A DNA stretch of 64,000 nt from Chiloscyllium plagiosum (Eukaryota): contig NC_057719.1 in the NCBI RefSeq assembly GCF_004010195.1, positions 30,251,853 through 30,315,852 of the forward strand. Direction: 5' to 3'. Below are positions 3,411-60,239 of the stretch, piece by piece (the first letter of the stretch is position 1; every line of letters begins with the position of its first letter). The position numbers and the translations under genes were made by a program. The notes beneath the pieces are model-generated. The model made no database searches and had not been told where the DNA came from. It saw only the letters and a list, made by a program, of their open reading frames with translations.

Positions 3411-3533
3411 GTGAGCTAGCACTTCAACTATATACCCAAAACTGCATTGTCAGTTTACTGTACTAATTGCATCACAGATTTGAGAGGCAGTTTTTGCCAA
3501 ATTACCAAATATAAAACTGAGGCCATTGAATCA

Positions 3534-3693
3534 TCTAGACAAAAGTGAGGACTGCAGATGCTGGAGATTAGAGTCCAGAGTGTGGTGCCGGAAAAGCACA
3601 GCAGGTCAGGCAGCAACTGAGGAGCAGGAAAATCAATGTTTCAGGCAAAATTCCTGATGAAGGGCTTTAGCCCAAAATGTTGATTTTCCTGCT
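3534..3693. mobile_element. Penelope-derived hairpin element with decayed hammerhead motif (CTGATGA at 3654)
   Basis: Inverted arms ggagcaggaaaatcaa / ttgattttcctgctcc; 11-bp direct repeat CCATTGAATCA at 3523-3533 and 3694-3704. Confidence 0.8.
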
Positions 3694-3809
3694 CCATTGA
3701 ATCACTTGCCCATTTCACAACCACTTGTTCTTGTTCTCTATTGACTGCAATTGAAAATAAAAGTTGATTTGATGCAAAATGAACGGGTGCTCTCATCCAG
3801 TTTTGTGCT

Positions 3810-4150
3810 GAGTAAAACATGTTCTCTCAAAACAGAGAAGGCCAAGAGGGGATTTGGACAAGGTATTTAAAATCATGAAATGTTTAGATAAAGTATTTAA
3901 AAATAAATTGTTTCAGTAGTTGATAACCCAGAGAGCAGTGATTTAAGGTGATTAACTGAAGCTCCAGTGCAACAAACCTGCTGTCTGATAGGATGGTGGA
4001 CATAGATTCAATGATAGCCTTCAAAAGGGAATGAGAAAAGATTATAGAGATACAAAGATAGAATGGAAGAGTGAGACTAACTGGGTTACTCAGTGAAAAA
4101 TATTACAAATCTGAGGGCTGAATGGCCTTCTGTGCTCACAGTTATATGAA
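3810..4150 (+). mobile_element. Old CR1 3' end fragment
   Basis: Degenerate RGDL..VFKIMK coding remnant and gggctgaatggcct tail. Confidence 0.6.
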
Positions 4151-4399
4151 GTATGCTTTCAGGTTTTACAAGAAATGTTGCAGTCATACCTTGGAATTGA
4201 CCTATTGTGCGAAAAATCTAGCACTGGTTTTAAATTTGTTGCATGTAACTATTTGGTAGCTAATGATCACCATACTTGGACTGGTGCACTAGACTTTAAT
4301 CTTACGATATTGTCACTCTCTCTTGTTTTCTGGTATGCATGTATTTATCCTGGCTATACTTTAGCTTGATTCGTGTTGTAACACTTTTGGCTTTTCAGT

Positions 4400-4640
4400 T
4401 TGAAGATCATAGGCTTATTCTAACTCCAAGCTATAAGCATGTAATCTAGGCTGATACTTCACTACAACTGTATAGGAGTGCTACAACTGCAGTACTTCAT
4501 TCTTTCAGATGAGCCATCACACCCATTTACCTATTTATATAATTGTATAACGTCACATAGTGCTATTTGAAGAACAGAAAAATTGCTCTCGAGTCTTGGA
4601 TAAAATTTATCAGTGGCGTCAAAAAAAAAGATGCCTCTTG
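4400..4640 (+). mobile_element. Degenerate Deu-domain-like SINE (SacSINE1/AmnSINE type); another remnant near 23050-23240
   Basis: tctaggctgatact...ctttcagatgag...tgctatttgaagaa motif series recalled from DeuSINEs. Confidence 0.4.
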
Positions 4641-56229: not shown

Positions 56230-57790
56230 TGGAAGGTAAGTTGTAACGAGTGATGTTCCATAGGGATCAGTATTGGGATCTCAACATTTTAGGGTTCATT
56301 TAAATTACTTGGATAAAGGCATCAATGGTATGGTTGCTAAATTTATTGATGGCATAAATAGGTAGGAAAGTGAGATGTAAAAAGGACATAAGGTGGTGAC
56401 AAAGGGATATAGGTTCGCTAGTTGAGTGAGCAAAGACCTGGCAAATGGAGGAAGATGTGGAAAAATGTGAAATGCAAGAAAAATAAAATAAAAGCATCCA
56501 AATGAATAATAAGGAGTTCTGAGATACAGAGAGATCTGGTTGTCCTAATGCATGAAATATAAGGTTAGTCTGCAGGTACAGAAAATAGTTAGGAACTCTG
56601 ATAGATTGTTATTGCTCATTGCAAAGGGTCAATAAAAACAAATGTAGGGAGATTATGCTTCACAGGCATTAATGAGCACACATCTGGAGTACTGAGCACA
56701 AGATTTATTTAAGCAAGATGTAAATACATTGGAAGCAGTTCAGAGAAGGTTTACTAGACTAATGCCTGGAATGGTTAGGTTATCTTATTAAAAAGGTCAG
56801 ACAGACTAGCTTGATGTGCAGGTGCTGGTGTTGAACTGGGGTGGACAAAGTTAAAAATCACCAGTTTATAGTCCAACAGGTTTATTTGGAAGTACAAGCT
56901 TTTGGAGCACTGCTCTTTCGTCAGGTAGCTAGTGGGGCAGGATCATAGGGCACAAAATTTATAATAAAAGATTGAAGTGTCATAGAACTGATGCAATGTA
57001 TTGAACAAACCTGGATTGCTGTTAAGTCGTTAATCACTTAGAATGGGGATGCAGGTTTTGATTGATTTATATGTAAATCCCAGAACTACTTTCGAGTCAG
57101 AGTCCTGAGTTAACTTAAGGTTTTAGAAGTATTTAAAAAAAGGTGACATCTCAGCTCAGACAATGCATTGAAGTTGTGAGATTAGAGTCTGTCTGTATCC
57201 CACTCTTGAGTCAGACTGGTCCTATTAGCAAAATAGGAATTTATATTGACTGCCTATAGATTGTATGCTTTTTGAACAAAATAGAATGTGAGTATGATCG
57301 TGTCTAAGAGTGTGTGTGTGTGTGTGAGAGTGAGTGTGAGGGTGTATAGCATAGTGTGGTCACCTATAGTGTGACATGAATCCAAGACTAGACTTGAATC
57401 CACTGAAGTTCAGAAGAGTGGGTGGTGACTTCATTGAAACATAAGATCCTGAAGAGGCTTGACAAAGTACATGTGGAAAGGATGTTTTCTCTTGTGGGAG
57501 AAACTCAGGGTCACCATTTTTAAAAAAGGGGTGTCCAATTTGAAACAGAGATACTGAGAATATTTTTTCTCACATAGGATCACAAGTTTTTGGAACTCTG
57601 TTCTGAAAATGGTCATGGAAAAAGTCTTCAAATATTTTTACAGTGGAGGAAACAATGTTTCAATATTTTTGTGCTGGATGTGGATAGATCCTTGATAAGA
57701 AAGGGTTGAAAAGTTATCAGTGTAGGAGGGATTTATGCAGTACTTAGATCAACCATGACCTTATTGAACAACCGAGCAGGCCTTACATGT
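56230..57790 (+). mobile_element. Old CR1 RT/3' fragment interrupted by a Penelope 3' end
   Basis: Decayed VP.GSVLG, MVAKFID and LEAVQRRFTRLMPGM; continues after 57385. Confidence 0.75.
56815..57384 (-). mobile_element. Penelope-like element 3' end (ORF end LGFMSHYR*, CA/GT microsatellite, pLTR with hammerhead motif and AATAAA)
   Basis: Minus strand CTTGGATTCATGTCACACTATAGGTGA; CTGACGA-AAGAGC-AGT-GCTCC-AAAAGCTT at 56924-56896; imperfect flanking repeat agactag(a)cttga. Confidence 0.8.
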
Positions 57791-58047
57791 ACTCTGATCC
57801 AATTAAAAGAAAAAAATAGTAGTTCAAGTAGTGATTTTCAGGCATTGTCCCTTTGGATTAAATATTGCATCAATCATCATACATTTTTAGTAATTGATGA
57901 TTAATCCAAAAAGAGTAAAATTACACTTAGCACCTTAATATTTTTAAATGATTGTTTTCTTCCTAGTTTAAATTTCTTGACTTTTGCATGAGTCGTTATA
58001 AAGATTAATGTGCATTAGCCATTAATACATAATATTTATTGTTGTAG

Positions 58048-58174
58048 GTTATGACAGTGATGTTACCCGGGAAAATGAAATCAATTACACCATTAGGGCC
58101 TTAACCACAAGTCTTCGTCCGATGTCTGGAATCAAGCCTCACTTACAGCAAAAAGAACCTTCTCAAGAAGAAAG
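58048..58174 (+). CDS. EML5: EML5 exon 17/17: [43 protein letters not shown]
   Basis: tgtAG / GTACTT; 127 nt; linker is EML5-like rather than EML6-like as recalled. Confidence 0.92.
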
Positions 58175-58565
58175 GTACTTATAGCGAAAAGAAAATTTGA
58201 GTTTCCATAAAGACAGCATTTTAATTCATATGGATTATAGTTTTTGGAAGGTTTTGGTACTTGAGCAAAACTTTTACAAAACTTGAGTAAGTTATCAGTA
58301 AGAGTGTTCATAAATTTTTGCATCAAGTTAGTATGTACACTGCAATAATGTTTTCCAGTATTATTTCAAGTTTCCAGGCATAGGATTCAAATTTATTAAA
58401 TGGATTTACTGGTGGTTTCTGAAATTTAGTGAAATCTGGACATTATAATCATTTTTCTTGGAAAATATGCCAACAATTTATCTAATTTGTCAGCTACTTC
58501 AGGAAAAGGTCTCATTTTAGGCCTTTTTAGATGTACATTGTTATGCTGGCATTAACAGTTATCAT

Positions 58566-58680
58566 AGGTAAAAAGGTAAAAGGCATTCCTGATGAAGGGC
58601 TTTTGCCCGAAACGTCGATTTTGCTGAAGCTCCTCGGATGCTGCCTGAACTGCTGTGCTCTTCCAGCACCATTGATCCAG
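58566..58680 (+). mobile_element. Single-arm Penelope-derived insertion
   Basis: Exact 14-bp direct repeat TTAACAGTTATCAT at 58552-58565 and 58681-58694. Confidence 0.88.
58589..58616 (+). ncRNA. Minimal type I hammerhead ribozyme motif with intact catalytic core
   Basis: CUGAUGA-A-GGGC-UUUU-GCCC-GAAA-CG-UC; palindromic ACGU in place of a stable stem III; weak stem I. Confidence 0.75.
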
Positions 58681-60239
58681 TTAACAGTTATCATGGCAAC
58701 AATAAAATTCCACATAACATCAGCACTAACTTGATTATTGTAGATTAATCAGATGAAGTTAAACTCTACACTTTAATTCAGTTTATTTGCTCCTCTTGCC
58801 CAGTTTTAAAAAATGTTTCATTCTCAATTTCTGACAATGGAAATTTAATATAATTTTACTTGGTGCTTTGTATAGTAATTCCATAAATCAGTTTCACTGT
58901 AGAAAAATAATATTTGTTATTTCAATTATTACTTTACCACTGCTGCAAAGTTTTCAATTATTGTCAAGTTTTACAATTTCTTTATTTAGTTTTGTCTACA
59001 TTACCAACTTGAGATGATACTTTAGACATGAACAGTTCAATTCTTGAATGACCAGCTAAATGATCCACATCAACAGTATGGTTTATTTCTTCTTAACATT
59101 TACTTCTCCGTCATTAATCATAAATGTTGGTTCAGTTGAGATTATAAGGTTGAGAAATCCAGCTCCAGAATGCTGCAGGAGTCAATACTATGGACTCCAT
59201 ATGTGCTCTAAGTGGGATGAAATATATGGTATGCCCATCCTGCTCAAGTGCACATGCCATGTATGTAGCAAAAGCTTCCAGGTCATGATATTGAAAAGTT
59301 ATTCTGGATGACTTGATGCACACATTTCAAACTTGGATTGTATGGGTTCACAGAATGCATTTGCTTGTCACACTTAAATAAATATACATGCAGTTGTATG
59401 AGGGAGCTGCCACTAAAGTTATTTAAGTGATTTGCCATCAAACTTGCAGATAAGAGCTTTCAACTAACTTCAGCTATTGCAAAGCTTGAGGGAATACTAT
59501 TGGGTGTTTTGGCAGCAATTGTGATGGGCTGGTGGATTTGGCAATAAATGTTACTGCACACATAGAAGGAGGGTAGAGACATTGGTGATCTGCACATGAG
59601 AATATAGGGACAGGAGTAGGCCATTCAGCATCTTGAGCCTGTTCTGCCATTCAGTGAGATCATGACTTATCTGTGACGTAATTCAATGTCCCTGTCTTTG
59701 GCCCATATCCCTTAATATATTTGCTGAACAAAAATGTATCTATTTATTGGCCACACAAATACTTGCGGCAGATATTGGACAAGCATATCATGGAGAAAGA
59801 GTAAATGTTGTGTGACATTTGAGCTAGACTTTTCCATGTTCCCTGACAATTACAGGAAGTGTCTGATAGCCCAATTCATGCCCCCATCATCTTGGCAAGT
59901 ATCTTCTTCAGTGCTATCCTGCATGGCACCCAATCAAAGTCTTTATTTGAAAATCAATGAGGTGGCACACAGACTATCCTCTCCCATACGTGCTAAGGAA
60001 CTCATTACATGCTGACCACATGTGAACTCAAAGATACTTGCAGTGCTAACATTGGAACAAATGCCTGTGAACCTCAGATAAAGTGCAAAGGAATATGGGA
60101 GTAGCAGTCCAAACCCAGTGAACTTGCTCCACTATTCAACATAATCATGGCTGAACAACCACTTCAATGCCTTTTCCCCACATTATTACCTGCATCTACC
60201 TTGTCTACCCCTTTAAGTGTTATAGAGTATAGTAGAAGA

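What the first reader, a model, noticed from the sequence alone, without database searches (positions are those of the whole stretch)
3523..58694. Family of short hammerhead-bearing Penelope-derived insertions, each with its own 11-17 bp target-site duplication
Seen: five related insertions of 115-232 bp (3534, 9782, 14664, 42731, 58566), each flanked by a different direct repeat (CCATTGAATCA; GACTCCTCCTCCATGAA; TTGTTGACACCATGGT; GATAAAGT(C/A)ATGTA; TTAACAGTTATCAT). Four share one fixed end (aaagtgaggactgcagatgctgg) and have a variable other end. They fold back around CTGATGA-AGGGC-TTTT-GCCC-GAAAC-GTC. Established: Penelope-like elements carry minimal type I hammerheads in their pLTRs and often insert with inverted pLTR segments. 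Inference: this may be a non-autonomous, retrozyme-like mobile RNA family inserted by target-primed reverse transcription, not a DNA MITE as the hairpin shape suggests.
Basis: partly seen in the sequence, partly recalled or inferred. Interest (0 to 1): 0.72.

Follow-up and report, generated by a model that had tools for sequence, protein, structure and literature searches.

The report
Head-to-head Penelope retroelement end stubs
Five short insertions, each with its own 11-17-base duplicated target site, are likely cut-down end pieces of a Penelope-like jumping gene, probably copied from both DNA nicks and joined head to head; this is an already described kind of insertion and probably not a new mobile RNA family.

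Summary
The five insertions and their target-site duplications (TSDs; 11, 17, 16, 14 with one mismatch, 14 bp) are real and far above chance. Some details need correcting. Only four fold back. One has no hammerhead core. The 'variable' end is mostly a second preferred end, 33-45 nt short of the fixed one, which matches the known Penelope 'tail'. The hammerhead fits the published minimal type I consensus of Penelope-like elements (PLEs). Whale-shark gene predictions join related arms to Neptune-type reverse-transcriptase pieces, an indirect link only. The centres differ in every copy, and one holds 47 bp copied from DNA 370 bp away, so the hairpin is likely built at each insertion, not copied from a master. 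No arm ends at the cleavage site (0 of 9) and there are no tandem units, which argues against a retrozyme. Variable TSDs and unequal ends argue against a MITE. Best reading: target-primed reverse transcription from both nicks, at the two tail start sites, running to an RNA end just upstream of the hammerhead. The architecture is published; this is a very abundant new member (roughly 10^5 copies).

The parts
3523..3533 (+). e1 left TSD (11 bp)
3534..3650 (-). e1 long arm: fixed (tail) end to stem II loop; about 4 extra nt at the outer end
3651..3693 (+). e1 short arm with hammerhead core at 3654 (one core change); ends 12 nt past the cleavage site
3694..3704 (+). e1 right TSD
9765..9781 (+). 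e2 left TSD (17 bp)
9782..9911 (-). e2 long arm: fixed end through a decayed hammerhead to 5 nt upstream of the core
9914..9997 (+). e2 short arm, core at 9914, ends at the tail boundary
9998..10014 (+). e2 right TSD
14279..14325 (+). local donor of the e3 centre (47 of 47 identical; 49 of 50 over 14276-14325)
14648..14663 (+). e3 left TSD (16 bp)
14664..14739 (-). e3 short arm (tail boundary to stem II)
14740..14786 (+). e3 centre: copy of 14279-14325 in the same orientation
14787..14895 (+). e3 long arm (stem II to fixed end); 96% alike to the short arm over 79 nt
14896..14911 (+). e3 right TSD
42717..42730 (+). e4 left TSD (14 bp, one mismatch)
42731..42763 (-). e4 tail piece with the fixed end
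42764..42797 (-). e4 rearranged hammerhead part; a 28-nt local hairpin around stem II replaces the rest of the left arm
   Evidence: read from the sequence
42802..42900 (+). e4 short arm, core at 42810 (damaged), ends at the tail boundary
42901..42914 (+). e4 right TSD
58552..58565 (+). e5 left TSD (14 bp)
58566..58583 (+). e5 prefix, no donor longer than 11 nt in the window
58584..58680 (+). e5 single arm with an intact minimal hammerhead (core 58589, stem II 58597-58608, predicted cut after 58616), ends at the tail boundary
58681..58694 (+). e5 right TSD

Best explanation
The five inserts are likely dead-on-arrival, 5'-truncated end pieces (hammerhead plus tail) of a Penelope-like retrotransposon, probably of the Neptune clade, likely made by priming reverse transcription from both DNA nicks and joining the two short copies head to head. 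SHOWN: each has its own 11-17 bp TSD; outer ends fall at two preferred places 33-45 nt apart; inner ends lie at or just upstream of the hammerhead; centres are unique; one centre is copied from nearby DNA. INFERRED: (1) the element's GIY-YIG nuclease cuts both strands 11-17 bp apart; (2) each freed 3' end primes reverse transcription on the element RNA, one at the end of the tail and one at its start; (3) both copies run about 85-130 nt and stop at or near the RNA's 5' end, a few bases upstream of the hammerhead core; (4) the two new 3' ends are joined by short homology or by a templated patch, and fill-in makes the TSD. The hammerhead is likely a passenger at this step, since copies read through its cut site.
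For: TSDs and null. Outer ends: long 97, 98, 101 nt past the cut site plus the e4 tail piece; short 56, 61, 63, 64. This matches the optional 30-40 bp tail (Craig 2021, PMC8557442, passages). It also matches the in vitro Anolis PLE, which cuts and extends both strands and starts at two sites that bound the tail, 111-118 nt into an ORF beginning at stem II (Frangieh 2024, PMC11167929, parts 1-2); here the fixed end is 117-121 nt from stem II. The fixed end is family-wide: 709-812 contigs per run end there with unrelated flanks (agreement 0.33-0.40) in two related organisms. Inner ends: 6 of 9 arms stop 0-9 nt upstream of the core, 3 in stem II, none at the cut site (read); loose-end consensus fades about 7 nt upstream. 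Hammerhead: fits the Cervera 2014 consensus; 2 exact and 2 one-mismatch descriptor hits (one from the second family) against 0 in 30 shuffles; stem II pair C-G in 6 rows and U-A in 5. e3: the centre is a 47-bp local copy; organism C's contig covers the donor and stops at 14647, the base before the TSD, with 135 letters left, as an empty site would. Link to an ORF: whale-shark predictions P0003, P0021 and P0030 join arm-like sequence to RT pieces. By eye, 25 of 38 positions of P0003's opposite strand fit the Neptune1_Ap row of Craig's alignment; motif null 0 of 20000 shuffles. The same RT family is joined to a GIY-YIG-like domain in P0036.
Against: No autonomous ORF was linked to this family in this genome (none held). 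The link rests on gene predictions of another shark and a related arm family. Such predictions also join the arm to host-like sequence (P0006, P0015, P0033) and an RT piece to a CR1-type RT (P0024), so contiguity is unproven. P0036's GIY-YIG hit is weak (E 0.047, below the cut-off) and Pfam names no RT domain in it. e1's short end (12 nt) is off the tail boundary, e5 has one arm only, and e4 is rearranged. The empty-site joint row was not among the 15 shown of 5383. Stem covariation is one event between two families, and 19-25 of 500 shuffles reach the whole-structure scores. The RNA 5' end was not tested. Helix I is only 2 bp and the hammerhead regions fold no better than shuffles (z -1.7 to +1.2).
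Confidence: 0.72

Rival explanations
1. A dedicated non-autonomous RNA of about 130-150 nt (hammerhead plus tail; SINE- or retrozyme-like) is the template and borrows PLE protein; the fold-back is still made at insertion.
For: Very high abundance (summed depth 1.3 million against 17-50 in neighbouring single-copy bins; a rough sign only). No arm of 9 goes more than 9 nt upstream of the core. No consensus continues past the fixed end. Animal retrozymes derive from PLE terminal repeats (bioRxiv 10.64898/2026.07.22.740005, parts 1-3 of 5).
Against: No tandem units. Ends are not at the cut site. Internal initiation on a full-length PLE transcript gives the same short products. At least two subfamilies and a second family show the same stubs.
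Confidence: 0.13
2. One cDNA is made from one nick and the second arm arises by snap-back or template switching on that cDNA, or by later local rearrangement.
For: e4 has a local hairpin around stem II. e3 shows local template switching. e1's short end is off the tail boundary and has a 2-nt match to the TSD. e3's arms share subfamily sites (96%).
Against: A DNA snap-back has no reason to stop at the tail boundary, yet 3 of 4 short arms in fold-backs and the single arm of e5 end there. The Anolis enzyme extends both strands in vitro.
Confidence: 0.12
3. A DNA MITE with terminal inverted repeats moved by a transposase.
For: Hairpin shape, short length, high copy number.
Against: TSDs of 11-17 bp with no fixed length or sequence; unequal ends; unique centres; a single-arm copy with a TSD; hammerhead and tail of PLE type.
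Confidence: 0.02

Closest known systems
Insertion unit of endonuclease-bearing Penelope-like elements: pLTR, adjacent inverted 5'-truncated copy, optional 30-40 bp tail, TSD (Arkhipova 2013 PMC3846280, parts 1-3 of 5; Craig 2021 PMC8557442, passages and supplement part 58)
   Same: Inverted truncated copy, tail at one end only, variable TSD (8-10 bp in the rotifer cases), host DNA caught between terminal repeats.
   Different: No ORF between the arms; TSDs somewhat longer (11-17 bp); copy number far higher.
Minimal hammerheads of metazoan PLEs (Cervera and de la Pena 2014, PMC4209133; parts 1-2 of 4 and supplement parts 1-2 of 3)
   Same: CUGANGAH core, extra base before stem II, G-C closing pair, palindromic 15.2-16.2; that paper already notes dual motifs 100-700 bp apart on opposite strands, attributed to truncated PLEs. 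The Acropora Neptune motif listed there is nearly the same as e5's.
   Different: No cartilaginous fish appears in its alignment; it gives no end or TSD anatomy.
Poseidon element of Anolis (PAc) in vitro (Frangieh 2024, PMC11167929, parts 1-2 of 4)
   Same: Two start sites bounding the tail at a similar distance from stem II; both strands cut and extended; uncleaved RNA used as template.
   Different: PAc is Poseidon clade, while the RT pieces found here fit Neptune spacing; the parts read do not describe ORF-less head-to-head stubs with TSDs.
Non-LTR retrozymes of animals (bioRxiv 10.64898/2026.07.22.740005, parts 1-3 of 5)
   Same: Non-coding, type I hammerhead, related to PLE terminal repeats, present in a chondrichthyan.
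   Different: Defined as head-to-tail tandem units each with a complete hammerhead; these inserts are head-to-head or single, and mostly damaged.

Membership tests
PLE insertion unit (endonuclease-bearing) | terminal repeat with a minimal hammerhead | tested here: met
   core in 4 of 5 inserts, intact in e5
PLE insertion unit (endonuclease-bearing) | adjacent inverted 5'-truncated copy | tested here: met
   4 of 5 inserts
PLE insertion unit (endonuclease-bearing) | 30-40 bp tail at one end only | tested here: met
   two end classes, 56-64 and 97-101 nt past the cut site; one outlier (e1)
PLE insertion unit (endonuclease-bearing) | variable-length TSD made at insertion | tested here: met
   5 of 5; an empty site is suggested for e3 in organism C but not shown directly
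PLE insertion unit (endonuclease-bearing) | terminal repeat continuous with an RT + GIY-YIG ORF | tested here: inconclusive
   3 of 33 whale-shark-type predictions join arm and RT piece; exon joins unseen
Neptune clade | RT sequence and Cys-rich RT-EN linker | tested here: inconclusive
   RT pieces fit the Neptune1_Ap row by eye; no tree built; link to this family indirect
Minimal type I hammerhead | extra base between 9 and 10.1, G10.1-C11.1, palindromic 15.2-16.2 | tested here: met
   e5 has all three; G-C in 7 of 10 rows with letters
Minimal type I hammerhead | compensatory change between families | tested here: inconclusive
   stem II inner pair C-G 6 / U-A 5, helix I C-G 4 / U-A 2; only two families
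Minimal type I hammerhead | self-cleavage (as a dimer) | not testable with these tools
   needs an in vitro assay
Non-LTR retrozyme | two or more head-to-tail units with complete hammerheads | tested here: not met
   no such array in the window; inserts are head-to-head or single
Non-LTR retrozyme | unit bounded by cleavage sites | tested here: not met
   0 of 9 arm inner ends at the cut site
Non-LTR retrozyme | circular monomer RNA | not testable with these tools
   the only raw RNA run laid was single-cell poly(A)
MITE | fixed short TSD and equal terminal inverted repeats | tested here: not met
   TSDs of 11, 17, 16, 14, 14 bp; ends unequal

The most novel reading that the evidence does not exclude
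A dedicated RNA of about 130-150 nt, starting at an initiator-like motif 4-5 nt upstream of the hammerhead, is a free-standing parasite of a shark Neptune element: it spread to about 10^5 copies without self-cleavage or circles, each landing as a freshly built twin-primed hairpin that sometimes copies neighbouring DNA into its centre.
Probability: 0.13. Interest if true: 0.6.

Novelty: new member of a known kind. Interest (0 to 1): 0.28.

Why it matters
The kind is known. Its value is as a natural record of how Penelope-like elements integrate, which is still poorly understood. If the reading holds, about 10^5 stubs give the nick spacing (TSD length), the two start sites and the template's 5' end at base resolution, and would test in vivo the two-strand priming seen in vitro for the Anolis element. 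In practice, annotators should label these hairpins as PLE stubs, not as MITEs or microRNA precursors (one scores weakly against a microRNA model).

Tried and rejected
Rfam scan: 3 weak matches, none a hammerhead. Own genome: not held. Pattern scans of viral (0 loci), metagenome (27: 5 loci) and prokaryote genome collections (28: 5 loci): all 10 loci match little beyond the pattern and were dropped as chance. A coding role for the arm was rejected: e3 and e1 differ by one base in length, so no frame is shared. Protein search with arm translations gave 1 hit among 57 candidates. A search with the window's own RT-like relic gave none. Pfam on 50 of 355 stop-free stretches outside known LINEs found host WD40 exons but no RT or GIY-YIG. 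No RNA holder was listed for the stretch. No pile-up of RNA ends was seen, but the raw run was single-cell poly(A), about 2% read, and cannot test cleavage; it is counted neither for nor against. No tRNA head. The first pair count used a misplaced structure string and is void; one search replaces it. Craig's supplement holds none of four shark genus names or two short family motifs. Frangieh's supplements gave only 7,325 characters of text and no hits; their figures could not be seen and may bear on the tail comparison. Lunse 2017 is not held and was seen only through a review's passage. bioRxiv supplements are closed, so the chondrichthyan retrozyme families of the 2026 preprint were not compared. 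Eight answered paper searches listed no paper on this shark family or on twin-primed PLE stubs; subscription papers and Repbase/Dfam were not searched.
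Full report
OBSERVATION. All five inserts (e1-e5) and their direct repeats are at the stated places. The repeats are 11, 17, 16, 14 (one mismatch) and 14 bp and sit directly at the insert ends. Only 2 of 2977 random stretch pairs at similar spacing share 11 or more bases. The window is repeat-rich DNA with CR1- and L1-type relics (read by eye) and exons of an EML-type WD40 gene on the + strand (Pfam E 1e-11 to 1e-19, below the whole-protein cut-offs). 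Four inserts lie between such exon hits; e5 lies beyond the last hit among the stretches I scanned. That the host is a shark is inferred from the labels of related proteins; I did not determine the species.

ANATOMY. Read on the hammerhead strand, every arm is a piece of one module of about 130 nt: a few upstream bases, the CUGAUGA core, stem II, GAAACGUC, about 60 nt, and then a tail of about 36 nt. Outer ends fall in two classes: 97, 98 and 101 nt past the predicted cut site (e2, e3, e1; e4 carries the tail piece), and 56, 61, 63 and 64 nt (e2, e3, e4, e5). e1's short arm ends at 12. Of 9 arms, 6 have inner ends 0-9 nt upstream of the core, 3 stop in stem II and none stops at the cut site (read). 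The centres all differ. In e3 the centre is an exact 47-bp copy of 14279-14325, about 370 bp to the left. e4's left arm is rearranged around a local stem II hairpin. e5 is a single arm.

HAMMERHEAD. Rfam has no hammerhead match. My descriptor, modelled on the consensus of Cervera and de la Pena 2014 (PMC4209133; I read parts 1-2 of 4 and supplement parts 1-2 of 3), finds e5 and e2 without mismatch, and e1 and one copy of a second family with one mismatch, against 0 in 30 block shuffles. e5 shows the three features that paper names. Across 11 rows from two families, the inner stem II pair is C-G in 6 and U-A in 5, and 78.5% of cells pair against 23-47% for slid controls; 19-25 of 500 shuffles reach the scores, so this is one compensatory event and modest evidence. 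The regions fold no better than shuffles. Activity is untested.

RELATED GENOMES. Runs of the same organism and two relatives hold the stretch. Laying four runs on 3300-15200 (e4 and e5 not covered) shows e1 and e2 in organisms B and C, and e3 in B. C's contig covers the e3 donor, then stops at 14647, the last base before the TSD, with 135 letters unplaced. A left-aligned empty-site joint would look like this, but the joint row was not among the 15 shown of 5383. If right, the donor is older than the insertion and the copying ran from flank to centre. At the fixed end, 709-812 contigs per run leave the reference with unrelated A+T-rich flanks (agreement 0.33-0.40), so it is a family-wide terminus. 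Upstream of the core the consensus holds for about 7 nt (TCATTCC on the hammerhead strand) and then fades; this fits the initiator consensus as I recall it, a weak and degenerate match. Summed depth over e1 is 1.3 million against 17-50 in neighbouring single-copy bins, which suggests about 10^5 copies; the tool warns that this is not a copy number.

LINK TO AN AUTONOMOUS ELEMENT. No assembly was available. An arm translation found one whale-shark gene prediction, P0003. It holds two head-to-head arms related to the window's, preceded by 50 residues whose opposite strand fits a PLE RT motif (0 of 20000 shuffles). By eye, 25 of 38 positions fit the Neptune1_Ap row in Craig 2021's supplement, with Neptune spacing. 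A search with P0003 gave 33 hits including itself; the 20 others I looked up are all whale-shark predictions. Three of the 33 join an RT piece and an arm (P0003, P0021, P0030). P0021 has a sense RT stretch followed by a same-strand arm, the order expected for an ORF and its 3' terminal repeat. That RT stretch finds P0036 and P0037, which by eye join RT motifs to a GIY-YIG-like end (Pfam E 0.047 for P0036, none for P0037). Against this: three other predictions join the arm to host-like sequence and one joins the RT piece to a CR1-type RT, so predicted joins may be false splices. The link is suggestive, not shown.

MECHANISM. The published PLE unit has an inverted truncated copy, a 30-40 bp tail at one end and a TSD (Craig 2021, passages; Arkhipova 2013, parts 1-3 of 5). 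The Anolis enzyme cuts and extends both strands, starts at two sites that bound the tail, and uses uncleaved RNA (Frangieh 2024, parts 1-2 of 4). Applied here (inference): staggered nicks 11-17 bp apart each prime a copy, one from each start site. Both copies read through the cut site to near the RNA's 5' end and are joined by short homology or a templated patch. A full-length transcript carries the start motif near its 5' end as well as its 3' end, so starting at the 5' copy would give these stubs without any separate element. In D. virilis the transcript starts 46 bp before a 75-bp intron (Schostak 2008, passages) that ends at helix I, so a start just before the hammerhead is not the rule and needs testing here. 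I give this model 0.72, a dedicated short RNA 0.13, single-cDNA snap-back 0.12 and a MITE 0.02.

COMPARISON AND NOVELTY. It works like, and by anatomy is, a truncated PLE insertion unit; the ORF criterion is inconclusive. It fails two defining tests for non-LTR retrozymes (tandem units; ends at cut sites) and the MITE test. Cervera 2014 already noted paired minimal hammerheads on opposite strands as truncated PLEs. Eight answered paper searches listed no description of this shark family; repeat databases and subscription papers were not searched. Earlier notes of this scan on the same genome reach the same reading and report other local captures; they are unchecked and are not counted as support. 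Verdict: real, a new member of a known kind, interest 0.28.

Noticed in passing
window 14740-14786 and 14279-14325: The centre of e3 is an exact 47-bp copy of DNA about 370 bp away; the donor appears to be present in a relative that seems to lack the insertion.
   Followed up: partly
window 50125-50340, 50583-50760, 5820-6030, 52473-52535; partial arms near 8982-9072, 16938-17022, 55495-55570: A second, older family with the same head-to-head layout, a longer stem II and a different tail; no adjacent TSD was found in 5 of 6 candidates tested, and only a distant 12-mer in the sixth.
   Followed up: partly
window about 19850-20500, minus strand: A worn stretch that by eye resembles the RT thumb of Penelope/Poseidon-type elements; not confirmed by Pfam or by a homologue search.
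   Followed up: partly
window 3215-3365, 21667-21927, 46834-47076, 51514-51816, 52191-52475, plus strand: Exons of an EML-type WD40 gene (Pfam beta-propeller hits).
   Followed up: partly
window 42764-42791: A 28-nt local hairpin around stem II replaces about 65 nt of e4's left arm, possibly a template switch at the stem.
   Followed up: no
window 11700-13400 and 52750-55200; 29100-34200: Two CR1-type LINE copies about 90% alike in opposite orientation, and an L1-type copy (by eye); 315 N at about 36590-36905.
   Followed up: no
proteins P0006, P0015, P0033: Whale-shark gene predictions include this repeat's arm as apparent coding sequence inside host-like genes; likely annotation errors.
   Followed up: no
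window near 10317: Organism C's contigs break from the window here with long unplaced parts, possibly an insertion specific to that organism.
   Followed up: no
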